DNA of 40,361 nt from Paracoccaceae bacterium. Its GTDB lineage: Bacteria > Pseudomonadota > Alphaproteobacteria > Rhodobacterales > Rhodobacteraceae. Positions within the stretch are counted from its first letter, which is position 1. Every line of letters starts with the position of its first letter. The notes below the pieces were generated by a model. It saw only the letters and a program-made list of their open reading frames with translations. It ran no database searches and had not been told where the DNA came from. Both the position numbers and the translations under genes were made by a program. Shown piece by piece: positions 1 to 40,361 of the stretch. The DNA is taken from positions 1-40,361 of the forward strand of contig JACOMT010000016.1 of assembly GCA_014623385.1 (NCBI GenBank), in the 5' to 3' direction.

Positions 1-251
1 CCCCGATCTGACGTCAAACCCCGGCCAGAAGATCATCGTGGGTTGCGAAAACGGCAATGGGTTGTCGCATCGGGCACGGCCGCAAAATAGCATGAAATCC
101 AACCACAGTTGAGGACGCACACTCCAGCTTCGGGGTGCCACCGCCAGTCCATCAGGGCACCAATCCTGGTCAGAATGTCGTCTGCACCGATCCGAACCGT
201 GTTCGACACGAACCGCGCAAAAGCAGGTGCACCAAACCACCCCTGAACGCC
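1..251 (-). mobile_element. Partial dead copy (copy 1) of a ~1.1 kb IS5-family-like element (IS-B), 5' part, cut by the window edge
   Basis: Nucleotide homology to 37588-37956 (same orientation) and to the reverse complement of 24219-24560. Minus-strand fragment ..FSQPTMIFWPG.. resembles the IFW..TG.QW region near the N-terminus of IS5-family transposases. No long ORF. About 99 bp missing relative to copy 3. Confidence 0.55.
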
Positions 252-800
252 TCCCAAAAGCACACAGGGCTGATGGTTTGTCCGCAATCCTCCAACTATG
301 CAGAAGACTTGGCGAGGTATTTTGTGATGACTCCCCGGCGACCTCCAATAAACGCCTCGCGGCATGCGTGACGACTGATGACGATCTGGATATGAAGCTC
401 GTCACGAGCGCGTTCACGAACCAATTGATTGTATTGAGCACCGCGTGGCTGACCCCAAGGCAGCTGCGGCGGATAACCGGTTCTGCCGTCTGTTATCGGC
501 AATGCATGCTTGCCCATGACCGGCGCGAAAACCGCGCGCAGCGTATCTGCATTGACCGCAGGTAGCACGGGCACTGAGGATCGCGCCAGAACCGGCATCC
601 GCTCAGCTGGACAGGCCCCGCGCGCTTGCGGGCCCTTCGGTTTGAATTTTTCAGAGGCTTTGCCTTCCCTGGCCCGTGTCCAAACAGGACCTTCTTTGCG
701 GCTTTCAGGAAAAAGGGTTCGTAGGCCTCGACAATACCCTTCAGTTGTTTGGCGGTGGTGCGGCTTAAAAAAGTTGGGGGACAAATCCTTACTAATGTAT
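252..800 (-). mobile_element. Decayed IS3-family-like remnant (IS-Y): OrfA tail plus rve-type OrfB core, internally deleted
   Basis: Minus-strand frames give ..EPFFLKAAKKV.. (like the ILKKA.A.FA end of IS3 OrfA). They also give ..RGAQYNQLVRERARDELHIQIVISRHAC..EAFIGG.., like RGSQY..F.E.L...GI..SMSR.GNC.DNA..ESF.G of IS3 OrfB. Frames are broken and the C-terminus is missing. Conserved terminal module GGTTTGTCCGCAATCC at 275-290. Confidence 0.45.
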
Positions 801-913
801 TTTCTGTTCAAGAGCATTAAAAATTATCCGGACAGGGTTGAATCTTTGCCCGGTTATACTGTATGTGTGTTGCATCGAATAACCGATGCACCAACCAAAC
901 CAAAGGACATCCA

Positions 914-1252
914 ATGAACCGCTTTGTATTCGCAGCAACTATCACAGCGTCTGTATTCACGCTCAGCGCGTGTGAACCTATACAGTTACCAACACAGCGT
1001 GCGTCGGTAATTTCTCTTGATGATGAACACGTTACGGTGCGTTCAGGTGAAGCCTTTAATAATGAAAATTTTAAAAGATCAGAAACACCGCAGTCTGAAA
1101 TTGACAAAAAAGCTTTTGATGTCTGCGCAAGGTATGGAAAACAGGCAGATTTTGTAGATTATACAAATATCGGAGAACAAATATATACACATGGTACTAC
1201 TTTGCGCGGTAGTGATACATTGAGAGAAAGCCTGTATGCTTGTGTAGACTAA
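914..1252 (+). CDS. Small putative lipoprotein, unknown function (112 aa)
   Basis: ATG at 914 inside ORF 863..1252. N-terminus MNRFVFAATITASVFTLSAC has a signal peptide plus lipobox-like LSAC. Local sequence is visibly AT-richer than its neighbours. Confidence 0.6.
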   Translation: MNRFVFAATITASVFTLSACEPIQLPTQRASVISLDDEHVTVRSGEAFNNENFKRSETPQSEIDKKAFDVCARYGKQADFVDYTNIGEQIYTHGTTLRGSDTLRESLYACVD

Positions 1253-1278
1253 CAATCCTGAAACTTGTCCTGTACTGC

Positions 1279-1620
1279 ATGACGAACCCATTCAAACTAC
1301 CGACAGGGAAAGTTTTGATCTCTTTCTCTAGCGGTAGATCGTCCGCAATGATGCTTTACAAACTTTTAGAAGCAAACGGGGATTTTGACTAATCCATCGT
1401 GCAAGTTGTGTTTGCAAACACCGGAAGGGAAATGCCTGAAACATTGGATTTCGTACAGGCACGTGGTGAAAATAGAGCCAAAATATTCTACCGCCAGGTG
1501 CCCATACCCGCGTCTTCACATCTTATGCTGATCGAGTCGGCGCGATGGCCTTTTCCCGCCTGACCATAACCAACACAGGCCACCCGTCAGCCAAAATCAT
1601 GATCATCTAAACCGCGCCGT
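1279..1620 (+). pseudogene. PAPS-reductase-like (phosphoadenosine phosphosulfate reductase family) pseudogene, 5' part
   Basis: Reads MTNPFKLPTGKVLISFSSGRSSAMMLYKLLEANGDFD, then an in-frame TAA at 1390-1392, then SIVQVVFANTGREMPETLDFV... The SGGxxS-type PP-loop context is recognisable. Downstream frames are broken and there is no room for a full-length gene before argF. Confidence 0.5.
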
Positions 1621-1854: not shown

Positions 1855-2784
1855 TTAGATGGCCAGACACCACCGCATAATTGCCTTTTGTGCATGCAGG
1901 CGGTTTTCGGCCTCGTCAAAGATCACTGAATGTGGGCCATCCATCACCGACGATGTTGCCTCTTCTTCTCGGTGGGCGGGCAGGCAATGCATAAACAGCG
2001 CATCCGCCCGGGCATGGGCCATCAGGTCATCGTTGACCTGATAAGGGCGCAACAGGTTGTGGCGCTGTTCTTTGGCCGATTGGCTGTCATGCATCGACAC
2101 CCAGGTGTCGGTCACAACCAGGTCGGCATTCTGCACCGCCTTCACCGGGTCCTGTTCGATGGCAACGCTGCACCCGGCCTTCCGGGCCATATTCATGAAT
2201 TCATCTTCGGGAGCCAGCCCTGGCGGGCCAGAAAAGGTGATGTCAAAGCCAAATTTTGCCGCGCCTTGCAGAAACGAGGAAAACACATTATTGTGGCCGT
2301 CGCCGTAACAGACCACCTTTTTGCCGGTGATGGGGCCACGATGTTCCTCGAACGTCATGATGTCGGCCATGATCTGACAGGGATGCGTGCGGTTGGTCAG
2401 CCCGTTGATCACCGGAACGGTGGCATGCTCGGCAAGTTCGGTCAGCACACTTTCGTTAAAGGTCCGGATCATAATCAGGTCGACAAACCGCGACAGCACC
2501 CGTGCCGTGTCAGCGATGGTCTCCCCATGACCGAGGTGCATATCTCTGCCAGACAGAACCAGGGTTTTGCCCCCCATCTGACACACGCCGACATCAAAGC
2601 TGACGCGTGTGCGGGTAGACGGTTTTTCAAAGATCAGCGCCACGATATGACCGGCTAGCGGCTGTTCGTCATCCGGTTCGCCCTTGGACCGCCCCGCGCG
2701 TGCGGTTTTCATTGATTTTGCGTGATCAATCATATGACGCAGCGCGTCTGGTGCGGTTTTATGGATATCCAGGAAATGGTTCAT
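1855..2784 (-). CDS. argF: Ornithine carbamoyltransferase
   Basis: ORF 1855..2820. Motifs STRTR, HPCQ and HCLP are present. The likely true start is MNHFLDIHK (ATG at 2784) rather than the upstream extension. Confidence 0.93.
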
Positions 2785-2849: not shown

Positions 2850-4025
2850 TCAGGTCGCTTTCAGCGATGCAGCCGTGGTATCAAGGCGTGATATCGCCTC
2901 GGCGATATCGTCTTCGGTGATGGTCAGCGGGGGCAGCAGACGGATCACGTTATCGGCTGCAGGCACGGTGATGACCTGATGGGCATAACCGGCATTCACC
3001 ACCTCGGTATTCGACATTCGGCATTTTATCCCTAGCATCAGGCCCACTCCGCGCACAGATTCGAACACCCCTGGATGTGCAGTGCTGAGCTCTTCCAGCT
3101 TTTGCCGCAAAAGCCCTGCCTTGCGGTTGACCTTGGCCAGAAAATCAGGGTCGGCCACGATATCCATGACGGTCGCGCCCACGGCACAGCCGAGCGGATT
3201 GCCGCCATAGGTCGACCCGTGTGTGCCCGCGGTCATGCCGCTGGCGGCCTGTTCGGTAGCCAGAACCGCGCCCAAAGGAAAGCCACCCCCGATGCCCTTG
3301 GCCACCATCATGATATCGGGTTCTATACCCGCCCATTCATGGGCAAAGAGCTTACCCGTACGACCAATACCACACTGAACCTCGTCCAGAATCAACAGGA
3401 TACCGTGTTTGTCGCAAAGATCGCGCAGCCCCTTCAGACAGACGTTCGGCAGCGGGCGAATGCCGCCTTCGCCTTGAACCGGTTCGACGAGAATGCCGAC
3501 GGTTTTGTCGGTTATGGCCGCCCGCATTGCGTCGTGATCACCCCAGGGTAGGTGGACAAAGCCGGGCAGCAGCGGACCAAACCCTGTTGTCATCTTTTCG
3601 CTGCCCGCCGCCGCGATCCCGGCCGAGGACCGGCCATGGAACGAGCCGCCAAAGGTCAGGATTTCGACCTTGTCCGGCTGACCTTGCTCAAACCCGTATT
3701 TGCGGACCATTTTGACCGCCAGCTCACAGCTTTCAGCGCCAGAATTTGTGAAAAACACGGTATCGGCAAAACTGGCCGCCACCAGCTTATCCGCCAGCAC
3801 CTGTTGTTGGGGTATCTGATAGAGGTTTGACACATGCCACAGGGCGTTGGCCTGATCCGTCAGGGTAGCAACCAGCGCAGGATGCGCGTGACCCAAGGCA
3901 TTCACCGCAATCCCGGCACCCAGATCCAGAAAACGCCGACCATCCGCCTCGATCAACCAGATGCCTTCGCCTTTGACAAAGCTCAGCGGAGCGCGGCAAT
4001 AGGTCGGCAGTATGGACGGGATCAT
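2850..4025 (-). CDS. argD: Acetylornithine aminotransferase (class III PLP aminotransferase)
   Basis: ORF 2850..4058. Typical N-terminus [17 protein letters not shown], an LDEVQCG.GRTG motif, and position upstream of argF on the same strand. Start chosen at the internal Met (4025). Confidence 0.92.
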
Positions 4026-4289: not shown

Positions 4290-5048
4290 CCCCCCGCAAA
4301 ACCCGACAGTAGCCGCCGCCTTTATTCTGGGGGTCACCGCTTTTGTTGCGGCCACCACGCTTTTGGTCAAAGCACTGGAGAACGAGGTGCTGGAGGCACC
4401 GCTGCATCCATTGCAGACAACCATGGCCGGTTTCTGTTTGCCTTTCTAGCGGTTATTACGGCGGCCACCGCAACCCGCATACCACTGACGCGTCGGCATT
4501 GGAGGTTACATATCGGGCGAACGAGCTGTGGATAGGTCGGTTGTTTTGCTGATATTTGCCAGCATGGTGTAGGCCCGATGGCTGTCTGCGGTCATCGCGT
4601 TTGCCGGGGCCGTGATCCTGTTGCGGGAAACGCCGCAGAACTTTCAACCGGCGGCTCTGTTGGTGCTGTCGGCAACGATGATGGGGCTGGAATTGATCTT
4701 TATCAAGCGGTTGACTGAGCTGAAACGCCCCTTGCGAACCTGCACTACAACAACGTCCTGTACGTTGCGTTGGCTGTTCTGACCGTATGTCAGATGCCCA
4801 CAAACGCGGCAATGGCTGGCACCAGCCAGCCTGGGAGGGTAAGGGCCTGTGCCCGGTTTTATTTTGTTAACGGCATGGCCCGCGCCGAAGCCAGCCTTGT
4901 TGTGCCGTTTGGCTATGCCACGCTGGTTTTTACCGCACTTTATGATGCGGTTTATGATTCGGTTGTGTCTGGAATGGTGCCGGATTGGATATCCGCTGTT
5001 GGTGCTGCGGTCATTCTAGATGGGGCACTGGTGCTGGCGCTGCGCTAG
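4290..5048 (+). pseudogene. EamA/DMT-family transporter pseudogene (multiple frameshifts)
   Basis: Fragments in three frames: ..FLFAFLAVITAATATRIPL.., ..WLSAVIAFAGAVILLRETPQ..PAALLVLSATMMGLELIFIKRLT.., and a C-terminal piece AEASLVVPFGYATLVFTALYD..PDWISAVGAAVILDGALVLALR (ORF 4770..5048). Confidence 0.6.
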
Positions 5049-5071: not shown

Positions 5072-5875
5072 TCAAGGCTTCAGCCGATAGCCCGAAATCA
5101 AAAGCCGCCAAGTAACATAACACAAGCCCACCGTGGCGATGATACAGACGACAGCCCCCAATACCGGGCTGCTATCTGACACGCCTAGCACCCCATAGCG
5201 GACGCCGTCAATCATATGGAACATCGGGTTCACATAGGTCAGCGCGTAAAGCACAGGCGGCAAGGATTGAACCGAATAAAAGCTCCCCGACAAAAAGGCG
5301 AACGGCGTGATGATAAAATTCGTAATCGCCGCCATCTGGTCGAACCGCCGGGCAAAGATACCAGTGAGAATCCCCAAGGCTGCCATGAACGCCGAGCCCA
5401 GCAATACGAACATCAATGTCACCAGTGGCGCATGGGGTACAACCCTCAGAACCACCAGAACGCCCACCCCGATTGTCACCGCAACCAAAAGCCCGCGTGC
5501 GACACCGCCCGCCAGGTAGCCCAGCAGCATCTCGAACGGGGACAGCGGTGGCATCATCGTATCGATAATGTTGCCCTGTATCTTGGCACTAAGCAGCGAG
5601 AAAGAAGTATTGGCAAATGCATTCTGGATCACCGTCATCATCAAGATGCCCGGCGCAATGAAATCCATGAACGGAACTCCCATCACCGCGCCCCTTTGCG
5701 GCCCGATGGCGATCGTAAAAATCACCAGGAACAAGCCCGCAGTCACCAGCGGTGCCAGGACTGTCTGGCTCCATATACTGGAAAAGCGCCGGATTTCGCG
5801 TTCGGCAAGGGTAAAGAGGCCAATCCAGTTGATGCTGCCAAAGCGGCGAATACCCAAATCATGCTGCTGCGACAT
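5072..5875 (-). CDS. ABC-2 type transporter permease (YadH/NodJ-like)
   Basis: Intact 267 aa ORF with multiple hydrophobic spans. N-terminus ..INWIGLFTLAEREIRRF..IWSQTVLAPLVTAGLFL is typical of ABC-2 permeases. No ATPase gene is adjacent. Confidence 0.8.
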   Translation of the reverse strand: MSQQHDLGIRRFGSINWIGLFTLAEREIRRFSSIWSQTVLAPLVTAGLFLVIFTIAIGPQRGAVMGVPFMDFIAPGILMMTVIQNAFANTSFSLLSAKIQGNIIDTMMPPLSPFEMLLGYLAGGVARGLLVAVTIGVGVLVVLRVVPHAPLVTLMFVLLGSAFMAALGILTGIFARRFDQMAAITNFIITPFAFLSGSFYSVQSLPPVLYALTYVNPMFHMIDGVRYGVLGVSDSSPVLGAVVCIIATVGLCYVTWRLLISGYRLKP

Positions 5876-6004: not shown

Positions 6005-6577
6005 TTGTCCATGTCCTGGACTGATGAGCGTGTGAAAATTCTCAAGAAAATGTGGGAGGAAGGACAATCTGCAAGCCAGATCGCCGATAAATTGGGGGGT
6101 GTCACGCGCAATGCGGTAATTGGCAAGGTGCATCGTCTGGGTCTGCCGAGGCGCAGTCACCGCGCAACCCCTGTGCCCAAGCCCAAGCCCAAGCCGGAGC
6201 CGGTGAAAGAGGTTAAGACCATTGTGGCCAGAGCCGAACCGGTAGAGTGTGAACCCGCTGTGGAACCTGTGCCAACGCCAAAAGCGAAACCGGCACACAA
6301 GGCCATCATTCCCGCCGATCAGCCCCTGCCGCCACAACCGTCAACCAACGAGATCAGCCCCGAGGTGCTAGCAAAGGTCAATGAGGTGGAAAAGAAGGCA
6401 AAAAAGCTGACCTTGATGGATCTGACCGAGCGCACCTGCAAATGGCCTATTGGCGATCCGGATAGCGACGATTTTTGGTTCTGCGGCCTGCCGGTACAAG
6501 CGGGGAAACCCTATTGCGAAGCGCATGTGAGCGTCGCGTTCCAGCCGATGTCGCCGCGCCGTTACCGACGGCGGTAA
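6005..6577 (+). CDS. gcrA: Cell-cycle transcriptional regulator GcrA
   Basis: MSWTDERVKILKKMWEEGQSASQIADKLGGVTRNAVIGKVHRLGL at the N-terminus and CKWPIGDP..DDFWFCG....GKPYCEAH at the C-terminus. A Pro/Lys-rich linker lies between them. Confidence 0.9.
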   Translation: MSMSWTDERVKILKKMWEEGQSASQIADKLGGVTRNAVIGKVHRLGLPRRSHRATPVPKPKPKPEPVKEVKTIVARAEPVECEPAVEPVPTPKAKPAHKAIIPADQPLPPQPSTNEISPEVLAKVNEVEKKAKKLTLMDLTERTCKWPIGDPDSDDFWFCGLPVQAGKPYCEAHVSVAFQPMSPRRYRRR

Positions 6578-7408
6578 CATTATTTTCGGGTAAAATGCTT
6601 TGGGGCCGGTCAGCAAAGTATGGGCGGCGTTTCCGGGTCTAATTGCAGAGTGGGGTGCACATGTTTGGTCGCATCGTGTGGTACTGGCAGAGCGACCCGC
6701 AATCCCACCTGGCACCAGCCGATCAGCAAAGGGATCATCGGCACGGAAAACCCGCATCCGTCACCCTGGTCCCAATCCCCGAACATGTCAGCGCCTCGCT
6801 TGTTGCTTTGGTTAGAGGGCGACCTCGACCTTAAGGCTCGCGCGTCCATCATCCCCAAAAGATGCCCCTGCCCCGGCATCGCGGATGCCTGCCAGATAGG
6901 CGGCGGTGGGGAGTTTGGCATCAAGGGCTGTTATTAGCAGAATACACGGCAAGCCCGTGGCACATGAACTTTTGCCGGGCGATGTTCAACCTCATCCGAC
7001 CGATATTTCAGCGTCTCAACCAACTCAGGTGGGCGCGGGGTTGGAGAGCGGAATGCTAGCAGACAGGGCCACGTCCCGATTGGCACCCGGCCCGATCCCT
7101 TGCGGTACCAGCCGACGATGATTCGTCCCGACAAGCGCGGCATGGGGGGAACGATATGCCCGGCAAAATCGGCCAACCGATCCTCACCACGGTCAAATTC
7201 CAGGTGCCAGGGTGAACTGGTCCTGATGCATGTCGAACAGCACCAACGTTATGTTGTCGTCCTCCGGTGCTTGTGCCAGCATCGGAAATAGCTCGGCATC
7301 GGTCAGCTGTTCATGGAACTGCGGACGCGCCGCATCATTGCCCGGGATCATTGCCCGGCGCAACCGTCATTGCAGCATGGGTCCTGTCCAGAGGCGTAAT
7401 CAGGTCAG

Positions 7409-8026
7409 TTATGTCAAAGCCTCTTTCACAGCAGCGCGCAGCACCGGTATCAGGTCAGTTTCAAACCACGGGTTCTGGCGCAGCCATCCGGTGTTGCGCC
7501 AGGACGGATGCGGCAGTGGGATAATGCCCGGTCCAAAATTCCGCCAATCCGCCACCGTTTCGGTGACTGACCGGGCGGCGGGCTTCAGATACCATCGATG
7601 TGCATGGGACCCCACAAGCAATGTCAGGCGGACAGGACCCAATGCCGCGCCCACCCGGTCATGCCATGTTTTGGCACAGACAGGCGGCGGGGGCAGGTCG
7701 GCCTTGCCTGCGTCATAACCCGGAAAACAGAAAGCCATCGGCACAATGGCAACCCGGTCCAGATCGTAGAAGGTGACCGCGTCCACATTCATCCAATCCC
7801 GCAGCCGGTCACCGGACGGATCGGTAAAAGGCCGACCTGATTGATGCACGCGTGCCCCAGGTGCCTGTCCCGCAATCAAAATACGCGCACCGGTACGGAA
7901 CCAGACAACCGGGCGGGGTGTATGTGCGGTGGCGGTTGCTGCAAACCGGTCGGCGCAAATGCGACAGGCGGCAATGTCCTGCATCAGACGAGACGCCTTG
8001 CCAAAGGATTGGACAGGTTCAGTCAT
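7409..8026 (-). CDS. Uracil-DNA glycosylase superfamily protein
   Basis: Intact 205 aa ORF with ..ILIAGQAPG.......GRPF.DPSGDRL..W.. and a ..PLPHPS.RN.. C-terminal motif, typical of UDG-family enzymes. Confidence 0.8.
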   Translation of the reverse strand: MTEPVQSFGKASRLMQDIAACRICADRFAATATAHTPRPVVWFRTGARILIAGQAPGARVHQSGRPFTDPSGDRLRDWMNVDAVTFYDLDRVAIVPMAFCFPGYDAGKADLPPPPVCAKTWHDRVGAALGPVRLTLLVGSHAHRWYLKPAARSVTETVADWRNFGPGIIPLPHPSWRNTGWLRQNPWFETDLIPVLRAAVKEALT

Positions 8027-9422: not shown

Positions 9423-9461
9423 TAAGTGTGCAGGTCAGTGCGTTCCGTCACATTTCCACAA

Positions 9462-9497
9462 CGTCTCATTTTACGTCTCATTTTGCGTCTCATTTTG
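9462..9497. repeat. 12 bp x 3 tandem repeat CGTCTCATTTT(A/G)
   Basis: Read directly: cgtctcatttta cgtctcattttg cgtctcattttg, starting 40 nt after the nhaA stop. Confidence 0.9.
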
Positions 9498-30435: not shown

Positions 30436-30949
30436 CGGCAGTTCCCAAAATCTGGTGTTTAGTTAGCTATCCAAGTGTTCGTCAGGATCAAGGAGATCGC
30501 TATGTCAGCACAACATACGCGGGTCAAAATCCCGCAGGATATGCGCCAATTCCGACACGATCACAGGAGACGCCGCTTTCTTGGGCACGAACCATGTTCG
30601 TTTCCACACTGCCCGTTCCGGGAATCGGCACGACAAGGATTTTACACGGATTTTACTTTTACGGGATAAACCATCACCACACTGGTAATAAAATCCCAAG
30701 CATCGATCATCGCCTTTTCCGATCACCCTGCCTCTTCTTAGGCTTCCTGTTTCGCGGATTGCAGCGGCGTTTTGTTTGATATTGGCCAGCCTTTGAGCGC
30801 GACCCAGCGTCTGGTTATGCGCGAGGTTACCAGCAAAACCTGTAGTTTATCGCCTGATATGCGATAGGCACCAACCTCCGGGTGCCACGAGTGCCAATTG
30901 CGGCAAGCAATGAGCCGATCATCCTGGGTGTTTGCCCCTCACACAAGCG

Positions 30950-31737: not shown

Positions 31738-32235
31738 TCAATGGCTGTCGGATATCCAACGTTGAACAGTGCCCCGAACCGCGTCCCAAGCACCCGGTGT
31801 CAGGGCGATGCCCAGAACCCGATCCGGGTTGGTCGGCGGCGGCATATGCACATTCGACAGACGGGCAAAACCAAACCGCCCGTAATATGGTGCATCCCCG
31901 ACCAGGATTACCCGCTCCCATCCATCGCTCTGTGCTGCGGCCAGCCCGTCGCGGAGCAGCACACCGCCCAAACCTTCACCTTGGTGGGTCGGATGCACGG
32001 CCACAGGTCCCAGCAACAGTGCCGATCGCGAACCAACGCACACCGGCCAGAATCGGATAGCACCACCAATGAACCCGGCCCCATCCCGCGCCACACGCGA
32101 CAAGCTTTGGACCGGCGGCACGTCATCGCGCAAACGATAGGACGGCAACGCTTTGCGCCCCGGGCCGAAACACAGGTCATACAGTGCCTCGACATTCCAC
32201 ATGTCATCGGGCAGTTCCGGTTTAATCTGAAACAC
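31738..32235 (-). CDS. GNAT family N-acetyltransferase
   Basis: ORF 31738..32307. ..LLGPVAVHPTHQGEGLGGVLLRDGL..A...GW..VILVGDAPYYGRFGF.. is a GNAT core. The probable start is GTG at 32235 (VFQIKPELPDD..). Confidence 0.8.
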   Translation of the reverse strand: MFQIKPELPDDMWNVEALYDLCFGPGRKALPSYRLRDDVPPVQSLSRVARDGAGFIGGAIRFWPVCVGSRSALLLGPVAVHPTHQGEGLGGVLLRDGLAAAQSDGWERVILVGDAPYYGRFGFARLSNVHMPPPTNPDRVLGIALTPGAWDAVRGTVQRWISDSH

Positions 32236-32311
32236 AGGTTTTCCGACCTCAACGGTAGAAATCCACCTATCATGCCCTCCAGGCCCTGGGCAAACATATG
32301 AAGCCATCGCA

Positions 32312-32887
32312 ATGTTCTATTGCCCGCAAGGCGGCCACGTCTTACCACAACCCATTCAACACGTTGACCACCCCCGTCCTGTCGGTTGGATTTCCAGCCG
32401 GGATAGCGGTGATATCACCACCTTGACACCGTATTCGTTTTTCAACGGCACTGCCTATTTTTCACCCCGGATCATGGTCGGCCAGCACCGCCCCAAATCC
32501 GGACATGACAACACCAGAACCAATGGTGCTTTTGCCACGCGGGATGTAATGAGCAAAAGCTCGGCGGCATGCGGCATTGGACAGGAATGTGGATGAATTT
32601 GCAGCGGTGGGCGTACCAATGGCGGAGTGTTTGGAAATCGGCTGTACTAGAGTCGCGAACGCGCCTGCATCTCTGCATGCAGGCATGCAGGGCTCACCAA
32701 AATTGGCAAATTGCCCAAAGCGTCGAACAAGGTGGTATTGGGCGAGGTTGTAGATATTTACATCCGCGATGACGTGCTAACCGGTGGGAAGGTCGCTATG
32801 ATCAAATATCACCTTCTGTCCCACAGGACTATCGCGATTACACTGTTATTCGCGAGGGTGTTTCAGCTGATGCGCCTGGATGATTAG
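32312..32887 (+). pseudogene. Flavin reductase-like (FMN-binding split-barrel) pseudogene, at least two frameshifts
   Basis: ..PRPVGWISSRDSGDITTLTPYSFFNGTAY.SP.IMV.. is followed after a shift by ..DEFAAVGVPMAECLEIGCTRVANAPASL... A further shift gives ..VVLGEVVDIYIRDDVLTGGKVAMIKY..LS......YTVI.E.FQLMRLDD. Confidence 0.65.
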
Positions 32888-33032: not shown

Positions 33033-34445
33033 TTAGTACTTGGTGGTTACCGCCTCAATGGCTTGCAAAGCGAATTTGTCGGCAACGCAGCTGTTTTCGG
33101 AATCCACAAACACAGGAACCGGGTCAGATTTCGGGGCGGACTGTTCGATGAACCCTGCGGCAGAATCAGAAAACAGCGGACCCTGAACCTCATAAACCCT
33201 GTTGCCTTCAGGCATCATGTGGATTTTTGTATAGATTGCCATTTGGCGTTGTTCTGGGCATAGGCCGACGCGGAAACGATTACGCCAACGGCCGCCGAAA
33301 GGGTGAGGTCTTCCATCACGGTAACCAGAACAATGACAAAGGCATCGGTCAGCGACACGCGATGCCAGGATATTCAGCGCATCCCAAGCAAAGGTATCGA
33401 TTACGACCATGAACAATTACATCAACCAGCGCGGCCAGCGGGTTCTGTTCAGGTATGAGGGGTGGCAACCAGGATGAAAACCGACAGGAACAGTGCCGCC
33501 GCCGCCCGCAATCCGGGTTCCACCACCCGATTGCACGTTGATCATCGATTGACCACTCATTGCACAGCCGCTTATGCCGCCCCAAAAGCCGTTAACTGTT
33601 TTTGCCACACCTCGGACAATACATTCCCAAGATACATTCCCACGATGTGCCGCCGCGTTTATTTGGCATTTTGCCTACCAGGTTCAGGGTCAAAAGGCTT
33701 CCGATCAGGTCGATGGCTGACAGGTTCATTGCTATAAGCCAAAATGATTTCCAGGGATTCCCGCTCAGCGGACCCATGGGAATGTGAAAGGCAGGCACCC
33801 TGCTCTCGCTCCAGACCATGTTCCCGACGCGCGGCACAACCCAGGCCAAAGGCAATCAACAAGCCCGCGACGGGTACGGGTATCACAGACGTCTATCACA
33901 GGTGTCATGATGTGCAGTATAACGCGTCGCGTGTCCCTGGATGATGCCCATTATCAGCGCAACCAGGCCCGGCACCAGGCAAAATAGCCATGCCGATCAA
34001 CCATTCGCCACCGGCCACGCAATGCCCGTCCCTAACCATGTGCCCGGTACTTTGAACCGGGCTCATCTATACCAGAAAGATCACTATGGCCAGCCCGTTC
34101 ACAAACCCCGGCATTACTGGATGGGGTACCAGCTGAATGAATTTGTCCCATTGCATCACACGGACAGAGACCTGTGGCAGGCCCATCAAAACCACCGCCG
34201 TAAAGCGGTATTCGATCTCATGCTCCTTAACCAGCGCGACTATGACGACCGCCAGTGTACCCGTTGTCCCCAGGATCATGCCAGGCGGTGATCAGCCCCG
34301 CCAGAAAAGCCGCATATAGTTCAACCAAGGTTATGCACGGCCACAAAGGCAAAGCTCACCGCCTCCGGCACCAGGGCCAGCACAACGGTCAGGCCCGGCA
34401 GCAATTCGATGTGCAGCCGTGCAAAGGACAAAAACCGTGAACCGG
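33033..34445 (-). pseudogene. SulP-family anion transporter pseudogene (many frameshifts/stops)
   Basis: N-terminal ELLPGLTVVLALVPEAVSFAFVA.., then ..[33 protein letters not shown]......[25 protein letters not shown] (ORF 34067..34279), then a STAS-like C-terminus ..VYEVQGPLFSDSAAGFIEQ.. (ORF 33033..33416). The pieces lie in at least four frames. Confidence 0.75.
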
Positions 34446-35094: not shown

Positions 35095-35517
35095 AATAAA
35101 TCGCTAAGAGCGTGGCATCACAGGATGGACGACAGATAATTTTTGACTGCGATGGCTGCAACCGGCTGACCGGTGGTAACGGTGAGGTGCCATTCATTTT
35201 TTGCCCCGTATCCAGCTACGATAAAGATCGCCTAATCCAGGTTACAATTATGACGACTATCTGATCATGACCCGCGGTGACAAGGCGACCATGGTCGTTG
35301 AGCAGGGCACACCGGTTGAAACAACCGGTCGAAACAAAGGTTGACCTATGACGGTGATGTCATTGTCGTCAACGACCCGGTCGCGGATGACTTGACCGTC
35401 GATGATCCCCTGTTCGTCTAACAAAATCGCGGTCCCCGGTGTTGACATGCCTTGCAGACCGGCACAAAATCTTGTCAGGTTTAGGTGGAAACTGCCAACA
35501 GCGTGGGGGTGGCAGGC

Positions 35518-36390
35518 ATGGCGCGTACCAAGCTCGGCATCATCGGCGGTTCGGGCATTTATGAAATCGACGGTCTGGCGGGTGCCGCCTGGACCACGGT
35601 CGACAGCCCATGGGGTACACCATCGGATGCGATATTGACCGGCACACTGGATGGCGTGGCTATGGCTTTTTTGCCCCGTCACGGGCGCGGCCACGTTCAC
35701 AGCCCGACCACTGTACCCTATCGCGCGAATATCGATGCCCTAAAACGGCTGGGTGTCACCGATGTCATCAGCGTCAGCGCCTGTGGCTCTTTCCGCGAAC
35801 ACATGGCACCTGGCGATTTTGTGATCGTTGACCAGTTTATCGACCGGACCTTTGCCCGCGAGAAGAGCTTTTTCGGCATCGGCTGTGTCGCGCATGTGAG
35901 CATCGCCCACCCGACCTGCCCGCGGCTTGGCGACGCCTGCGAAACGGCAGCTCGCACGGTGGGCATCCACGTGCATCGGGGCGGTACTTATCTGGCGATG
36001 GAGGGCCCCCAGTTTTCGACGCTTGCGGAATCCAAAATGTACCGCGAAAGCTGGGGCTGTGATGTTATTGGCATGACCAACATGCCAGAGGCGAAACTCG
36101 CCCGCGAGGCCGAGCTTTGTTACACCTCGATAGCCATGATCACCGATTATGACAGCTGGCATCCCGACCATGGCGAGGTCGATGTGACCGAGATCGTCAA
36201 GGTACTGACCGGCAATGCCGAAAAGGGGTGCGCCCTGGTGGCGCAATTGCCCGGGCTGCTGGGACCGGATCGGGTACCTTGTCCGCACGAATGCGACCGC
36301 GCGTTGGAATACGCCATTCTGACGGCCCCGGAACAACGCGATCCGGCATTGGTCGCGAAACTGGGTGCTGTTGCAGGACGGGTTTTGTAG
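35518..36390 (+). CDS. mtnP: S-methyl-5'-thioadenosine phosphorylase
   Basis: MARTKLGIIGGSGIYEIDGL... (ATG 35518 within ORF 35485..36390), with ..FLPRHGRGH.. and ..GMTNMPEAKLAREAE.CY..IAMITDYD.W motifs. Confidence 0.92.
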   Translation: MARTKLGIIGGSGIYEIDGLAGAAWTTVDSPWGTPSDAILTGTLDGVAMAFLPRHGRGHVHSPTTVPYRANIDALKRLGVTDVISVSACGSFREHMAPGDFVIVDQFIDRTFAREKSFFGIGCVAHVSIAHPTCPRLGDACETAARTVGIHVHRGGTYLAMEGPQFSTLAESKMYRESWGCDVIGMTNMPEAKLAREAELCYTSIAMITDYDSWHPDHGEVDVTEIVKVLTGNAEKGCALVAQLPGLLGPDRVPCPHECDRALEYAILTAPEQRDPALVAKLGAVAGRVL

Positions 36391-36842
36391 TGTCCTTCGT
36401 TGCTGCATCTGTCGCCTTGCTGCTGATTCCTGGCCCGAAATCGTATTGCTGGTGCAGAGCTATGCTTTCAGCAGTTGCCTTGGGTGACTTCATTGCGATG
36501 ACCGCATCGATCCTGGCATCCACCACGCTGTTTGCGGCACTGAAATGGACCGGGGTGCTGTATCTGGTCTGGTTGGGCATCAAATTGATCAAAAGTGCCA
36601 AGGACAACGATATCACGCTGATGCCGATTTCTGGTGTTTGTGCCCCAGCTCATCGCGCCTGATGCGCCGATCCTCTGGCCGCGATCAACGCACTGACCTA
36701 TGCTGTTCTGGCAGATCGTTTGCGCCAGGCAATTGCCTGATCGGGTGTCGTCCCGTTGATCACACGCGCAGGTGGGGCCACATTAGGGGCCACATTGATT
36801 GTCATGGGAGTGCTAACCGCAGCAGTGCGACGCCCGGCTTGA
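36390..36842 (+). pseudogene. LysE/RhtB-family exporter pseudogene (internal deletions and frameshifts), abutting the IS relics
   Basis: VSFVAASVALLLIPGP.. ...LGDFIAMTASILASTTLFAALKWTGVLYLVWLGIKLI is followed after a shift by ..FLVFVPQLIAPDAP.. and later ..LTYAVLADRL... Segments expected between these motifs are missing. Confidence 0.65.
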
Positions 36843-36854: not shown

Positions 36855-37956
36855 GTTCTTCTTCAGGAATGCGCGTATAAAGCCCCGCCGGTATCCAGTG
36901 CTTTGCACAGTTCGAAGGATATGATCGCGTGAGCGCGTGATGTTCGGCGGAAGCGTCGATTGGGCCATTCTGTCCGGTCCTCTGACCTTTTCGATGGCCT
37001 TACATCTGGCAAAGCGGTTTTGGTAGTCCGGTTCTGCGATTGCCGGTGTTGGCGGGGTGAGGGGCGGCTCCCCGACAGGTTCTGCCCGATTGCCACCAGC
37101 GCCCAGCTGGGCGTCTTGTTTTGGCCAGCCCGAACTATCGGGCGGTGCGTCATCGTGGCATAGGCATTGCTCAATCCCTCAAGCGGCGGTTGGAGGTCCG
37201 CCTGCCCCCGCGTTGTTCCCGGACACGCAGGGCATCCCGGTTGGCCTTGCTGGTACAGGCCTTGTCGGCCAATACCCGCCCTGACCATGGTATCAACCCG
37301 GGGACTCCGGGCCCCGGTTCGCAGCTGCCCTGTGTAGACCCTGTCGCTGAAACGTTCCTTGTCCAGGCCTCATCCGGACCTCATCCGGGCGGGCAAAGCC
37401 GGTGGATGTCATCTTCCTTAACCCGGCGTACGGTTCGCGCCGTTCCTGACCCACCGTGCTTGCGTGTCGGCACTGGAATGCACGCCTGGATCGTCGGGCG
37501 GATCGTCGGGGGACCTCCTCTTCGGCCTGGTCTTGCGGCGCGCCCATATGGCTGCCGGGGCGGGTGGCACGTTCCACCGCTGCGGCCCCGTGATCCCCGG
37601 CCAGAAGATCACTGTGGGTTGTGAAAACGGCAACGGGTCGTCGCATCGGGCACAGGCGCAAAGAGGTCGGGACCGCAAAACAGCATGAAATCCAACGGAA
37701 TTTTCAACGCCCGCTCCAGCTTTGGGGGTGCCACTGCCTGATCGGCAGACAGTTGAAGCGGACCAGAGGATCACAACCCTGACGCCCGATCCCGGCGCGC
37801 CCCAACCCGTGCTTGCGTGTCGGCGAACACCACCGCCAGTCCCTTAAGGTCGTCAATCCCGGTCAGAACGTCGTCTGCGCCGATCCAAACCGCGTTCAAC
37901 ACGAACCGCGCAAAAACACGCGCAAAAACAGGTGCATCAAACCACCCCTGAACGCC
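36855..37956 (-). mobile_element. Dead copy 3 of the IS5-family-like element IS-B (most complete, ~1.1 kb)
   Basis: Minus-strand fragments are ..LSADQAVAP.. / ..DDPLPFSQPTVIFWPGITGPQRW.. (N-terminal region) and ..GRVLADKACTSKANRDALR.. (compare VLADKAYDS.ANR.AL of IS5-family DDE transposases). Stops occur in every frame. Terminal sequences are cgttcttcttcagg (left) and cctgaacgcc (right). Confidence 0.6.
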
Positions 37957-38612
37957 GGAACAACGCGCCGCATCGGTCGTAGTGGGTGGCGATCCGACGC
38001 CAGTCGTTCAGGCGAACGAACAGGTTCTCGACCCGGTGATACTGCCGTGATCGGCGGGGCTCTTGCGCCCGCGTCGGGCCGGGATGCAGGTGGCAATGCC
38101 TTAGCCAGTCGGCATCGTAGCCCTTGGCGGCCCAGGGGCACCTTGGCGGGCGGCAAGGTACCAGGGCGACCCAGCTTCGCGTTGCCGCGCGCATCCGCGG
38201 GCGACAGGCAGAACGTCAGAGGCCGCCCCGGCGATTACAGGCCATGTGCAGTTTCGGGTTCAGCCCGCGCCTTTGGTCCGTCCGATGTCCCGCGGTCGAG
38301 GGAGGCTTTTGAGATGCTTACCGCTGTTCTGTGGACCTTGGGGTGGGTGCTGTCGAACATGATTGTCTTACCGTGGCCCCCCGGCCCGGCGTGCTCGACG
38401 AAGATCCGGGTGAACACACCCATGCCCGACCAGCGTCAGCACCCGCCGGTCATCAACCCACGACTTGCCCCGGAACTCAGGAAAGAACAGCTGCAGTCGC
38501 TCCATATATTCGTCGGTCAGCCAGAAATGCCCGATCATCATGCCCACCCGGTCCCCGGGTGTTTGAAGCACGCAGCCCTGGCGGCCTCAAGCACGTTTAA
38601 GGGTCCTTGACC
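37957..38612 (-). mobile_element. IS5-family (IS427-type) transposase relic IS-A, internally deleted and 3'-truncated by IS-B
   Basis: Minus-strand ORFs: MIGHFWLTDEYMERLQLFFPEFRGKSWVDDRRVL.. (38368..38571), MGVFTRIFVEHAGPGGHGKTIMFDSTHPKVHRTA.. (38235..38423), and ..AAKGYDADWLR...HRVENLFVRLNDWRRIATHYDRCGALF (37937..38194). About 35 codons are missing between the first two blocks. Homology stops at 37957, where IS-B begins. Confidence 0.8.
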
Positions 38613-38919
38613 CTAGGGGGCTGTATTTTTTACTTGCAAAGCTGTTTGTCTTTCTGCGTCTGTCGGTAAAAAGACGGCGGTAGTAATAACAAGAATAGAA
38701 ATGCAAATGGACGTTATAATTGAACGTTATAACCGCAAAAATTTTTCTGCTCCGTGGCCGTATGGGCTGGAAAACCACGAATTCCGGCGACTCATCGGCA
38801 CATTGTAGCACCGCATTTTTCGTAAACACATTCAAAATAGGGCTCAAATACGGGGCCTGCGTGCTTATTTGCCTGATTTTCCGTAGGCTATCGGGCCAAA
38901 TTGCGGCGGTGTTTTCCGA

Positions 38920-39120
38920 CTTGGGGCGGTGCCAGCGGGTTTTGTGATGCGAACCCCCCGAAGAGGTTCACTGTGAGGTTCACTGTTTGGTTCCGGTGTG
39001 ACAGCCGGAGGCGGTGCGCGTCTGCCCCCCTGTGCCTGCAAAGGACGGGACCGGGAACCGGACGGCCGCGGAACAGCACCGTGGCAACGTGCCTGTGCTG
39101 CCCTATCAGGCACCCCGCCC
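38920..39120 (+). promoter_or_regulatory. Candidate decayed cobalamin-riboswitch-like element (orphan)
   Basis: GGGGCGGTGCC (38923-38933) can pair with GGCACCCCGCCC (39108-39119). Between them lie a GGGTT..AACCC hairpin, CCGGTGTGACAGCCGG (compare C.GGTG..AA..CC.G), CTGCCCCCCTGTG (compare CTGCCCCCGCAACTGT), a GGGAA block, and TCAGGCACCCCGCC (compare the B12 box CCAGGAGACCTGCC). No gene lies downstream on this strand. Confidence 0.35.
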
Positions 39121-39436
39121 TGTGGCAAGGATGAAGCAGATACCATCTCTGGAGTGCCGAAATTCCGGGTCCATATCGTTACACCGCACCCGGCATATCC
39201 CTCGCATATCCCTCACCGGGCCTGCGGGACAAACATGTCCGGGGAAAGGGGGGATCAGCCCATCACCCGATTTATACAACAAAGCCTTTGCGACAGGCTA
39301 GCCACAGGCACCGATTCGCTGGGGGGTATGCCACTGCCCAGCACAACCCGATGGTGTCTCCGGTTGACGCATCCTGCACCATGACTGATGTCACAAGGCT
39401 TGCCGACACGGATAGCGGCATACGGACCGATCCGCA

Positions 39437-40361
39437 TTAAACCGCCCTTAGAACCGCGCCGGGGTTCATGATACCGTTCGGGTCCAGCGCGTTCTTGATC
39501 GCGCGCATCGTCGCCAGCTTGGCCGGAGCGGCATAGCGTTCCAGATCATCAACATTCAGCCGCCCAACCCCATGCTCTGCGCTCACTGATCCTTGCAACT
39601 GATGCACCAGATCGTGGATCGCACGCCTGATCATCGGCCGTGCGTTTTCGTGATCCGCCCGGCTGTACCCCGGCAGGGGGAAGACATTGTAATGCAGGTT
39701 TCCATCGCCGACATGCCCAAAGCAATTAATGCGGAACGTGCCAATTTTTGCGATCTCTTTTGGTGCCTTTGAAAGGAATTCCGGTATTGCCCCGACGGGA
39801 ATCGAAATATCATGGCTGGATACCGAGCCAATCCGGCGATTGGCCTCAGGAATGTTTTCCCGCACCGCCCAAAAAGCGGCACGCTGGGCCTCGGATTGGG
39901 AGATCAGCCCATCGGTGACAATCCCCGCCTCATAGGCCGCTTTGAACAGCGCTGCAAGCGCGGCTTGCGGGTCCAGACCCGGTGCCAGGCCAACGTCAAT
40001 CAGCACGCACCATTCCGGTTTCTCGTCAAAGGGTTGGCGCAGGTCGGGCAAGATTTCACCGAGGAAATCCAGGCCTTGACGGTGGATCAGCTCAAAGGCC
40101 GACACCGCCTCGCCCATATGGGTGCGCGCCATTGACAAAAGCGACAAAGCCGCTGTGGCAGCGGGCAAAACCAGCAATGCAGTACCCGTGCCTGCGGGTA
40201 CCGGGCTCAGCTTGAGCGAGGCCGCCGTGATGATACCCAGCGTGCCCTCAGACCCGATCATCAGGTTTTTCAGATCATACCCGGTGTTGTCCTTGCGCAG
40301 GCGCGACAGGCCATCCCAGATCGTCCCATCAGGTAGAACAACCTCTAGTCCCAGACATAAA
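39437..40361 (-). CDS. FAD-linked oxidase (GlcD / D-2-hydroxyacid dehydrogenase-like), C-terminal ~300 aa, 5' end outside the window
   Basis: The reading frame stays open to the window edge (..GTIWDGLSRLRKDNTGYDLKNLMIGSEGTLGIITAASLKL..). The C-terminal ..GSVSAEHGVG......L.......L..M.AIK.ALDP.GIMNPG motif is typical of FAD-linked oxidases. Confidence 0.88.
   Translation of the reverse strand, partial: LCLGLEVVLPDGTIWDGLSRLRKDNTGYDLKNLMIGSEGTLGIITAASLKLSPVPAGTGTALLVLPAATAALSLLSMARTHMGEAVSAFELIHRQGLDFLGEILPDLRQPFDEKPEWCVLIDVGLAPGLDPQAALAALFKAAYEAGIVTDGLISQSEAQRAAFWAVRENIPEANRRIGSVSSHDISIPVGAIPEFLSKAPKEIAKIGTFRINCFGHVGDGNLHYNVFPLPGYSRADHENARPMIRRAIHDLVHQLQGSVSAEHGVGRLNVDDLERYAAPAKLATMRAIKNALDPNGIMNPGAVLRAV

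What the first reader, a model, noticed from the sequence alone, without database searches (positions are those of the whole stretch)
1..40361. Selective large-scale gene decay: ~20 gene wrecks between intact housekeeping genes, only ~43% intact coding
Summing my own intact CDS calls gives about 17 kb of 40.4 kb. Core genes (argF, argD, gcrA, rpiA, sdaA, purA, secG, pyrG, mtnP) have clean full-length frames. Accessory functions do not: two EamA, SulP, LysE, GST, flavin reductase, Uma2, lytic transglycosylase, an OmpR fragment, a PAPS-reductase-like gene, and possibly a sulfatase, a porin, a glutaredoxin and a C-N hydrolase. These carry several independent lesions each, including frameshifts, in-frame stops, missing internal segments and truncations, and they sit alongside dead insertion sequences. 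That combination is the textbook picture of a lineage in early or middle reductive evolution, as in recently host-restricted bacteria such as Mycobacterium leprae or Sodalis glossinidius, which are roughly half coding. For a Rhodobacterales-like genome this would be notable. Sequencing error is unlikely to explain it, because many lesions are stops, tens-of-bp duplications and deletions rather than homopolymer slips, and neighbouring essential genes are clean.
Basis: partly seen in the sequence, partly recalled or inferred. Interest (0 to 1): 0.7.

Follow-up and report, generated by a model that had tools for sequence, protein, structure and literature searches.

The report
Decaying genome of a sponge bacterium
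This 40-kb contig from a roseobacter-type bacterium living in a Guam sponge really is about 42% working genes; the rest is broken genes, dead mobile elements and unrecognisable DNA, the known signature of a bacterium becoming host-dependent.

Summary
Fourteen gene wrecks were verified by frameshift-aware comparison with intact orthologues or family members: EamA x2, SseB-like, GST, nitrile hydratase alpha, beta and accessory, DUF6524, a lipoprotein, Uma2, NUDIX, flavin reductase, SulP and LysE. There are also IS1595, IS481 and IS5 fragments and three copies of a dead ~1.1-kb IS5-like element.

In the rpiA-to-pyrG block, gene order matches free-living Rhodobacteraceae exactly. Intact genes are as similar to relatives as relatives are to each other. 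The wrecks are far more diverged (nitrile hydratase alpha 42% against 77%) and carry stops of all three kinds.

Four independent assemblies reproduce the lesions. The only artefacts are two contig-join errors, one of which falsely truncates thiamine pyrophosphokinase.

The contig comes from Lamellodysidea herbacea sponge SP12 and probably belongs to MAG SP12ARB1. The source paper does not mention pseudogenes.

Genome-wide extent is unproven: one flank is 45% coding, the other 89%. This is a new member of a known kind.

The parts
11..303 (+). Copy A of the dead IS5-like element. It is cut by the contig end and continues in L145.
314..604 (-). IS1595-family transposase fragment, residues 182-284 of 319.
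   Evidence: tblastn to ISOar1 of Octadecabacter: 47% identity, E 6e-17.
1855..2784 (-). argF, intact (309 aa).
   Evidence: Pfam OTCace; 80% identity to L089 over the full length.
2850..4025 (-). argD, intact (391 aa).
   Evidence: Pfam Aminotran_3; 82% identity to L089.
4293..5024 (+). EamA transporter pseudogene #1, with 2 in-frame stops and internal loss.
   Evidence: 33% identity to the intact EamA of L089 at the syntenic place, E 3e-32.
5072..5875 (-). ABC-2 permease, intact (267 aa).
6011..6577 (+). gcrA, intact (188 aa).
   Evidence: Pfam GcrA; 72% identity to L089.
6747..7400 (-). SseB-like pseudogene, spread over 3 frames with 6 in-frame stops.
   Evidence: Matches the intact SseB genes of L089 and L149 at the same position between UDG and gcrA.
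7409..8026 (-). UDG-family gene, intact (205 aa).
   Evidence: Pfam UDG; 71% identity to L149.
8163..9422 (+). nhaA, intact (419 aa).
   Evidence: Pfam Na_H_antiport_1; 74% identity to L089.
9423..11677 (.). 2.25 kb with no recognisable homology. Presumed gene remains decayed beyond recognition.
   Evidence: No hit in Pfam or in plasmid tblastn.
11678..12466 (-). rpiA, intact (262 aa).
12537..13044 (+). GST pseudogene, with 1 frameshift and 1 stop.
   Evidence: Syntenic with intact GST genes in 14 relatives. Median identity 37% against 50% among relatives.
13098..14471 (+). sdaA, intact (457 aa).
14555..15371 (+). EamA transporter pseudogene #2, with 2 frameshifts, 4 stops and loss of about 64 aa.
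   Evidence: Syntenic with intact EamA genes in 27 relatives.
15368..16012 (-). Thiamine pyrophosphokinase. It is intact in reality (234 aa). The window lacks 17 nt at position 15383, a contig-join artefact that alters the C-terminus.
16135..16449 (+). N-terminal remnant of a 540-830-aa hypothetical lipoprotein gene. The rest of the gene (to about 18220) is unrecognisable and invaded by IS fragments.
17106..17249 (-). IS481-family transposase C-terminal fragment (48 aa).
   Evidence: 69% identity to the Thioclava IS481 transposase, E 4e-17.
17926..17999 (+). Solo terminal piece of the IS5-like element.
18221..18487 (-). DUF2842 gene, intact (88 aa).
18477..19769 (-). purA, intact (430 aa).
19943..20286 (+). 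DUF6524 pseudogene, with 1 frameshift.
20298..20574 (-). Nitrile hydratase accessory-protein pseudogene.
20592..21096 (-). Nitrile hydratase beta pseudogene, spread over 3 frames with several stops.
21097..21734 (-). Nitrile hydratase alpha pseudogene, with frameshifts and stops.
   Evidence: The reference protein gives Pfam NHase_alpha at 3e-90. Window identity is 42% against 77% among relatives.
21831..22211 (+). secG, intact.
22385..24028 (+). pyrG, intact (547 aa).
24166..25486 (+). Copy B of the dead IS5-like element, carrying a 245-nt nested insertion.
25907..26833 (-). PfkB-family sugar kinase, intact (308 aa).
28334..28858 (+). Hypothetical lipoprotein, open (174 aa).
28915..29186 (+). 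Uma2-family endonuclease remnant: N-terminal half only, with 1 frameshift.
30010..30435 (-). DUF1178 gene, intact (141 aa).
30511..30869 (-). NUDIX hydrolase pseudogene, with 1 frameshift.
   Evidence: Syntenic with the NUDIX-DUF1178 pair in L090.
30950..31693 (-). EcsC-family gene, intact (247 aa).
31738..32307 (-). GNAT acetyltransferase, intact (189 aa).
32312..32875 (+). Flavin reductase pseudogene, with 2 in-frame stops.
33036..34425 (-). SulP anion transporter pseudogene, spread over 3 frames with loss of about 110 aa.
35485..36390 (+). mtnP (PNP_UDP_1), intact.
36390..36833 (+). LysE translocator pseudogene, with 2 stops and about 160 nt of internal loss.
36928..37918 (-). Copy C of the dead IS5-like element.
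37921..38538 (-). A second, different IS5-family transposase pseudogene (2 frames, 5 stops) abutting copy C.
39437..40361 (-). FAD-linked oxidase gene. It is intact and runs off the contig end; it is 472 aa in the longer ENA contig.

Best explanation
The window is a chromosomal contig of a Roseobacter-group (Rhodobacteraceae) bacterium from the sponge Lamellodysidea herbacea, specimen SP12 from Guam. It most probably belongs to MAG SP12ARB1. The genome is in a middle stage of reductive evolution.

Accessory genes are no longer under purifying selection. These include drug/metabolite, sulfate and amino-acid exporters; GST; the nitrile hydratase operon; flavin reductase; NUDIX; SseB-like; Uma2; and a lipoprotein. 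They have been inactivated by frameshifts, nonsense mutations, short tandem duplications, internal deletions and IS insertions, and they now drift neutrally.

Interleaved housekeeping genes remain under normal constraint. These include argF, argD, gcrA, rpiA, sdaA, the TPK gene, purA, secG, pyrG and mtnP.

An old burst of a ~1.1-kb IS5-family element, plus IS1595, IS481 and another IS5, contributed to disruption. These elements have since decayed themselves.

Deletion has been too slow to remove the debris, so coding density has fallen to about 42% in this stretch.

Shown: the lesions, the synteny, the divergence contrast, the dead IS family and the sponge origin.

Inferred: relaxed selection due to a host-restricted life, the assignment to SP12ARB1, and genome-wide extent.
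For: Synteny. The order pyrG-secG-NHase alpha-beta-accessory-DUF6524-purA-DUF2842-lipoprotein-TPK-EamA-sdaA-GST-rpiA is the same as in Ruegeria, Tateyamaria, Shimia and Sulfitobacter. In the window, seven of these genes are broken. The order UDG-SseB-gcrA-ABC2 ... EamA ... argD-argF is shared with L089 and L149, and SseB and EamA are broken in the window.

Divergence contrast (window vs relatives / relatives vs each other).
- Intact genes: rpiA 70.6/70.6, sdaA 75.1/76.7, TPK 48.4/46.2, pyrG 82.1/85.3.
- Wrecks: NHase alpha 41.6/76.8, NHase beta 31.5/64.6, DUF6524 44/59, GST 37/50.

Lesion types. There are 34 in-frame stops of all three kinds, and 2-3 reading frames per wreck. Of 21 short perfect tandem duplications, 20 lie outside intact genes.

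GC gradient. Intact genes are 57.3% GC, wrecks 55.3% and unassigned DNA 52.5%.

Dead IS. Six copies plus fragments lie in 54.5 kb, 77-92% alike, with a 15-nt imperfect terminal inverted repeat. The consensus hits Pfam DUF772 (IS5 N-terminal domain) at E 4.5e-6 and weakly hits DDE_Tnp_1 in another frame.

Reproducibility. Four assemblies agree.

Source. The sample is a sponge metagenome. SP12ARB1 is the only Rhodobacteraceae MAG from that sponge. Among the four Rhodobacteraceae MAGs of the study it has the lowest CheckM completeness (69%), the most scaffolds (262) and the densest gene calls (1 per 881 bp against 947-1022 bp).

Comparison. The closest relative's locus, L089, is 89.5% coding.
Against: - The 6 kb beyond the right end of the contig is about 89% coding, with only one split gene. 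Low density is therefore not uniform, and genome-wide figures are unknown.
- About 29% of the window has no detectable homology, so its origin as decayed genes is an assumption.
- EamA #2 shows almost no excess divergence (45.5 against 48.8%).
- No read-level check was possible.
- All assemblies come from one BioSample.
- The assignment to SP12ARB1 and the obligate or host-restricted lifestyle are inferences.
Confidence: 0.85

Rival explanations
1. Local junk island. The pseudogenes are real, but they are confined to a few IS-invaded stretches of an otherwise ordinary, free-living-type genome with about 88% coding. There is no lineage-wide reductive evolution.
For: - The right flank (L148 14877-20906) is about 89% coding.
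- Decay is densest near IS5-like copies.
- No genome-wide data were available.
Against: - Wrecks are spread over the whole 40 kb and continue in the left flank, which is 45% coding with three more IS copies.
- A split Lactamase_B_3 gene lies even in the dense right flank.
- The broken genes are chromosomal, syntenic accessory genes scattered between core genes, not a mobile island.
- The statistics of the probable parent MAG (69% CheckM completeness, 1 gene call per 881 bp, 262 scaffolds) fit genome-wide fragmentation.
Confidence: 0.12
2. Sequencing or assembly artefact. The frameshifts and stops come from consensus errors, strain mixing or mis-joins, and the genes are really intact.
For: - Two join artefacts do exist in the window: 17 nt missing at 15383, which falsely truncates TPK, and 8 nt missing at 30942.
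- All assemblies derive from one sample.
Against: - Outside those two joins and a few SNPs, four assemblies made with different software are identical.
- The wrecks carry many lesions each, including 34 in-frame stops and missing segments of 45-110 aa.
- Their amino-acid divergence is far above that of neighbouring genes on the same contigs. Consensus errors cannot produce that.
- Intact genes on the same contig are error-free.
Confidence: 0.02
3. Alternative decoding. The apparent stops or frameshifts are read through (stop-codon reassignment or programmed frameshifting), so the genes are functional.
For: TGA is the commonest in-frame stop, 18 of 34.
Against: - All three stop codons occur in-frame in the wrecks, and all three terminate the intact genes.
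- Twenty intact genes are open under table 11.
- The wrecks also have frame changes, deleted segments and elevated divergence.
Confidence: 0.01

Closest known systems
Mycobacterium leprae genome decay (about half coding, more than 1,000 pseudogenes, dispersed dead repeats). Cited from my own knowledge of Cole et al. 2001.
   Same: - Pseudogenes are kept in syntenic positions between intact housekeeping genes.
- Each gene carries several lesions.
- Dispersed repeat families lack a working transposase.
- Coding density is near 40-50% in the sampled stretch.
   Different: - It is an alphaproteobacterium from a sponge, not an actinobacterial human pathogen.
- Only about 55 kb was sampled here, and one flank has normal density.
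Sodalis glossinidius (about 51% coding, recent symbiont). Cited from my own knowledge.
   Same: Large numbers of pseudogenes in a genome of still moderate size, with accessory functions lost first.
   Different: Sodalis pseudogenes and IS elements are young. Here the IS copies are 77-92% alike with no open transposase frame, and the wrecks are down to 25-50% identity. The decay is therefore older.
'Candidatus Halichondribacter symbioticus', the Rhodobacteraceae symbiont of the sponge Halichondria panicea (Knobloch et al. 2020, Environ Microbiol 22:483). The paper is not in the held library; it is cited through PMC10942906, and the details are from memory.
   Same: A Rhodobacteraceae lineage specific to a sponge host, with genomic signs of host dependence and mobile-element proliferation.
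   Different: It is a different host and lineage. I could not verify its coding density or pseudogene numbers. In the present contig the mobile elements are all dead.
Eroded natural-product symbionts of sponges and tunicates, for example 'Ca. Endolissoclinum faulkneri' (PMC3851785) and the lasonolide producer in Forcepia (bioRxiv 10.1101/2022.05.23.493085).
   Same: Marine-invertebrate symbionts with low coding density and many pseudogenes.
   Different: They belong to other phyla or orders. No biosynthetic gene cluster is seen in this window.
IS5 family insertion sequences
   Same: - The repeat is about 1.1 kb and present in many copies.
- It has a 15-nt imperfect terminal inverted repeat.
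- The consensus hits the IS5 N-terminal domain DUF772 above Pfam's cut-off and weakly hits DDE_Tnp_1.
   Different: - No copy has an open transposase frame.
- There is no DNA or protein match to any plasmid-borne IS.
- A target-site duplication was not established.

Membership tests
Pseudogene-rich genome in reductive evolution | Several independent inactivating lesions per gene. | tested here: met
   Each wreck spans 2-3 frames. There are 34 in-frame stops in total and missing segments of 45-110 aa.
Pseudogene-rich genome in reductive evolution | Wrecks are orthologous to intact genes at the same position in relatives. | tested here: met
   Eleven wrecks are syntenic. Flavin reductase, SulP, LysE and Uma2 are supported only at family level.
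Pseudogene-rich genome in reductive evolution | Relaxed constraint: wrecks are more diverged than expected, intact neighbours are not. | tested here: met
   The excess is weak for EamA #2.
Pseudogene-rich genome in reductive evolution | Low coding density across the whole genome. | not testable with these tools
   The window is 42.5% coding, the left flank about 45% and the right flank about 89%. The MAG statistics are only suggestive.
Pseudogene-rich genome in reductive evolution | Proliferation of mobile elements. | tested here: met
   Six IS5-like copies plus fragments in 54.5 kb, and also IS1595, IS481 and a second IS5.
Pseudogene-rich genome in reductive evolution | Host-restricted lifestyle. 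| tested here: inconclusive
   The contig comes from a sponge metagenome. The source paper reports Rhodobacteraceae 16S sequences stable in these sponges over 11 years. The link between contig, MAG and 16S, and any obligate dependence, are not shown.
Pseudogene-rich genome in reductive evolution | Lesions are real at read level. | not testable with these tools
   Only agreement between four assemblies could be checked.
Pseudogene-rich genome in reductive evolution | Shift towards A+T in unconstrained DNA. | tested here: met
   GC falls from 57.3% (intact) to 55.3% (wrecks) to 52.5% (unassigned). The effect is modest.
IS5 family (the ~1.1-kb repeat) | DDE transposase with the IS5-type N-terminal domain. 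| tested here: inconclusive
   The consensus hits DUF772 at E 4.5e-6, 27 bits against a cut-off of 23.1. DDE_Tnp_1 gives only E 0.2 and lies in another frame. Individual copies give no hit.
IS5 family (the ~1.1-kb repeat) | Terminal inverted repeats and defined ends. | tested here: met
   AAGACCYCTGCRTRA is found at both ends, 12 of 15 positions matching. The ends are shared by copies A, B, E, F and G.
IS5 family (the ~1.1-kb repeat) | Target-site duplication. | tested here: inconclusive
   The flanks show no clear duplication. Decay may have erased it.

The most novel reading that the evidence does not exclude
The Lamellodysidea-associated Rhodobacteraceae lineage SP12ARB1 is, genome-wide, a roughly half-coding bacterium. 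It would carry hundreds of pseudogenes and an extinct IS5-family burst making up around a tenth of its DNA. That would make it the most eroded Roseobacter-group genome known, and a marine, sponge-hosted analogue of M. leprae. This decay went unnoticed in the original metagenome study.
Probability: 0.45. Interest if true: 0.6.

Novelty: new member of a known kind. Interest (0 to 1): 0.5.

Why it matters
Roseobacter-group genomes normally code at about 88-90%. Their known route to small genomes is streamlining in the open ocean, not erosion.

A sponge-associated roseobacter caught with about 40% of its recognisable genes broken, and with a dead IS burst, would give a marine, non-insect case of the middle stage of symbiont genome decay.

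It would also point to which functions become dispensable inside a sponge: exporters, detoxification and nitrile metabolism.

There is a practical side as well. Medium-quality MAG statistics (69% completeness, inflated gene counts) can hide biology rather than poor binning, and metabolic reconstructions from such MAGs will overcount functions unless pseudogenes are called.

Tried and rejected
- Pfam on six-frame translations of the gaps and on forty open segments of the unassigned DNA. This was almost blind to the wrecks; even the EamA wreck, later proven by tblastn, was missed. Absence of a Pfam hit therefore says little.
- A 22-nt probe from the repeat scanned against metagenome contigs. All 46 hits were chance matches, and the source sample is not in that collection. 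This spent the only scan.
- Synteny anchored on DUF1178. The neighbourhood is not conserved among relatives, apart from NUDIX in L090.
- blastn and tblastn of repeat copies B and C against plasmids. There was no match. Only the six-copy consensus revealed the IS5 domain.
- The plasmid hit to a 'PAPS reductase family protein' at 17043-17253 on the + strand. I treat it as an antisense shadow of the stronger IS481 hit on the other strand.
- The idea that the gene between DUF2842 and TPK was a lytic transglycosylase. Its intact homologues are Pfam-less hypothetical or putative lipoproteins.
- The idea that the FAD oxidase at the right end is truncated. It simply runs off the contig and is 472 aa in a longer contig.
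- Rfam and tRNA scans found nothing.

Full report
**Origin and reliability of the sequence**

The window is a whole 40,361-nt contig. Exact-protein look-ups place it in the metagenome of BioSample SAMN04939363, run SRR3666246, BioProject PRJNA320446. The supplement of Podell et al. 2020 (PMC7313196) identifies that sample as Lamellodysidea herbacea specimen SP12, clade Ia, Anae Island, Guam, June 2014.

purA is 86% identical to that of Thalassococcus and 80-84% identical to those of many Roseobacter-group genera. It is only 66-69% identical to those of other alphaproteobacterial orders. The organism is therefore a Rhodobacteraceae. No GTDB species representative carries the sequence.

The only Rhodobacteraceae MAG from SP12 is SP12ARB1: 2.91 Mb, 57.2% GC, 262 scaffolds, 3307 genes, CheckM 69%. 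Assigning the contig to that MAG is an inference.

Contigs from JGI, ENA-megahit, SPIRE and Logan overlap one another along the whole window and are 99.8-100% identical to it. The differences are a handful of SNPs and two gaps: 17 nt at position 15383 and 8 nt at position 30942. Both gaps lie exactly at the ends of JGI contigs, so the window was stitched from those contigs and lost a few bases at each join. Restoring the 17 nt gives thiamine pyrophosphokinase a 234-aa product whose C-terminus matches relatives. That one lesion is an artefact. All other lesions are shared by all assemblies.

**The observation**

My intact-gene list has 21 genes and covers 17,150 nt, or 42.5% of the window. Recognisable gene and IS wrecks cover about 22%, a dead repeat covers 6.6%, and about 29% is unassigned.

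**What the gaps are**

The clearest evidence comes from synteny. I fetched 80 loci around purA from other genomes and ran their ORFs against the window with tblastn.

Free-living Ruegeria, Tateyamaria, Shimia, Sulfitobacter and others share this gene order: pyrG, secG, nitrile hydratase alpha, beta and accessory, DUF6524, purA, DUF2842, a 540-830-aa lipoprotein, TPK, EamA, sdaA, GST, rpiA.

The window has exactly this order. However, nitrile hydratase alpha, beta and accessory, DUF6524, the lipoprotein, EamA and GST are split over two or three frames. They contain stops and lack segments. Pfam on the intact reference proteins fixes their identities.

The closest relative with a long contig is L089 (74-82% identity). 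It and L149 show intact SseB and EamA where the window has wrecks. L090 shows an intact NUDIX gene next to DUF1178 where the window has a frameshifted remnant.

The right half lacks conserved synteny. There I translated open segments and searched them against annotated plasmids, then mapped the best annotated proteins back onto the window. This identified:

- flavin reductase (32312-32875, two stops)
- SulP (33036-34425, three frames)
- LysE (36390-36833, two stops)
- a Uma2 remnant (28915-29186)
- an IS5 transposase (37921-38538)
- an IS1595 fragment (314-604)
- an IS481 fragment (17106-17249)

**Evidence that this is relaxed selection and not error**

For each syntenic gene I compared two numbers: identity between the window and relatives, and identity among the relatives themselves.

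| Gene | Window vs relatives (%) | Relatives vs each other (%) |
|---|---|---|
| rpiA (intact) | 70.6 | 70.6 |
| sdaA (intact) | 75.1 | 76.7 |
| TPK (intact) | 48.4 | 46.2 |
| DUF2842 (intact) | 55.2 | 56.0 |
| pyrG (intact) | 82.1 | 85.3 |
| NHase alpha (wreck) | 41.6 | 76.8 |
| NHase beta (wreck) | 31.5 | 64.6 |
| NHase accessory (wreck) | 44.7 | 58.2 |
| DUF6524 (wreck) | 44.0 | 59.2 |
| GST (wreck) | 37.0 | 49.8 |
| EamA #2 (wreck) | 45.5 | 48.8 |

Intact genes are on par with relatives. The wrecks fall far short, except EamA #2.

In-frame stops inside the wreck alignments are TGA 18, TAA 11 and TAG 5. Intact genes terminate with all three codons, so recoding is excluded.

GC falls from 57.3% in intact genes (GC3 64%) to 55.3% in wrecks and 52.5% in unassigned DNA.

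Twenty of 21 short perfect tandem duplications (10-27 nt) lie outside intact genes. Their density is 5.2 per 10 kb, against 2.0 per 10 kb in relatives and about 0.25 per 10 kb in shuffles.

**The repeat**

A 1.0-1.3-kb element occurs three times in the window: 11-303 (cut by the contig end), 24166-25486 and 36928-37918. There is also a 74-nt solo end at 17926-17999.

Longer ENA contigs that extend the window hold three more copies. That makes six copies in about 54.5 kb. The copies are 77-92% identical and differ by many indels.

The copies share ends with a 15-nt imperfect inverted repeat. No copy has an open frame, and neither DNA nor protein searches of single copies hit anything.

A majority consensus of the six copies hits the IS5 transposase N-terminal domain DUF772 (E 4.5e-6, above Pfam's cut-off). 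In another frame it weakly hits DDE_Tnp_1. I read this as an extinct IS5-family element. Several assemblers break inside its copies.

**Extent**

Left of the contig, 8.1 kb holds ADH, RPE65, DUF2141 and PadR plus three IS copies, and is about 45% coding. Right of the contig, 6 kb holds the rest of the FAD oxidase, a Lactamase_B_3 gene split in two, GNAT, peptidase M16, thrC and SURF1, and is about 89% coding.

Over the 54.5 kb sampled, about 48% is intact coding. For comparison, the locus of relative L089 is 89.5% coding.

Decay is therefore patchy, and the genome-wide figure remains unknown.

**What was not confirmed**

The PAPS-reductase-like call rests on sub-threshold Pfam hits. My searches were limited to open segments of 30-55 aa or more, against Pfam and plasmid records. 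These remain untested rather than refuted. The NUDIX wreck surfaced only when the right relative was at hand.

**Comparison with what is known, and novelty**

The pattern is the classical middle stage of reductive genome evolution, and it is closer to M. leprae than to a young symbiont. The source paper never uses the words pseudogene, coding density or transposase. Eroded symbionts of sponges and tunicates, and a host-dependent Rhodobacteraceae sponge symbiont, are already on record. This is a new member of a known kind. It is of moderate interest, and the interest would rise if the whole genome proves to be about half coding.

Noticed in passing
window 15383 and 30942: The window lacks 17 nt (ATCCTCTGTGCTGTCGA on the minus strand) at 15383 and 8 nt at 30942, compared with the ENA and SPIRE assemblies. 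Both sites coincide with JGI contig ends, so they are stitching artefacts. The first one falsely shortens thiamine pyrophosphokinase from 234 to 214 aa.
   Followed up: yes
window 11-303, 17926-17999, 24166-25486, 36928-37918; L145 15980-16990 and 19760-20905; L148 20330-20906: A ~1.1-kb dead IS5-like element with the terminal inverted repeat AAGACCYCTGCRTRA occurs about once per 9 kb in the 54.5 kb sampled. Copy B carries a 245-nt nested insert that repeats the left-end motif. If this density is representative, the family would make up roughly a tenth of the genome.
   Followed up: partly
window 4939-39214 (21 arrays): Short perfect tandem duplications of 10-27 nt, mostly two copies. Twenty of the 21 lie outside intact genes; the exception is an in-frame GCCCAA repeat in gcrA. 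This looks like a slippage signature accumulating in unconstrained DNA. Density is 2.6 times that of relatives.
   Followed up: partly
window 16450-17105, 29187-30009, 1253-1854: A+T-rich patches (41-49% GC against a 56% average) with low-complexity translations. Their origin is unknown. A 129-aa lipoprotein-like ORF (863-1252) next to the third patch has no homologue in Pfam.
   Followed up: no
window 9423-11677: The largest stretch (2.25 kb, 57% GC) with no detectable homology by any search. It lies between nhaA and rpiA, where relative L089 has different genes (ABC ATPase, a 532-aa protein, DAHP synthase).
   Followed up: partly
L148 15411-16176 (just beyond the window's right end): A Lactamase_B_3 gene is split into two ORFs covering profile positions 1-63 and 90-159. 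It is probably another pseudogene, sitting in an otherwise densely coding stretch.
   Followed up: partly
L089 7770-8508: In the closest relative's long-read contig the UDG-family gene is uncalled and matches the window's intact UDG in two frames. This is either a long-read frameshift error or an independent pseudogene there.
   Followed up: no
window 4059-5071 compared with L089 10817-15871: Between the ABC-2 permease and argD, the relative has five genes (P450, EamA, WYL regulator, EamA, MFS) in 5.2 kb. The window has only one EamA wreck in 1.0 kb. This indicates outright deletion as well as pseudogenisation, or a gain in the relative.
   Followed up: partly
window 337, 11161, 32026, 33913: Single-base differences between assemblies of the same sample. 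Three lie in wrecks or unassigned DNA and one lies in the GNAT gene. They suggest slight strain heterogeneity in the sponge.
   Followed up: no
window 36833-38538: The LysE wreck, IS5-like copy C and a second, unrelated IS5 transposase wreck abut one another. Copy A likewise abuts an IS1595 fragment. IS elements seem to have landed in or next to each other.
   Followed up: no
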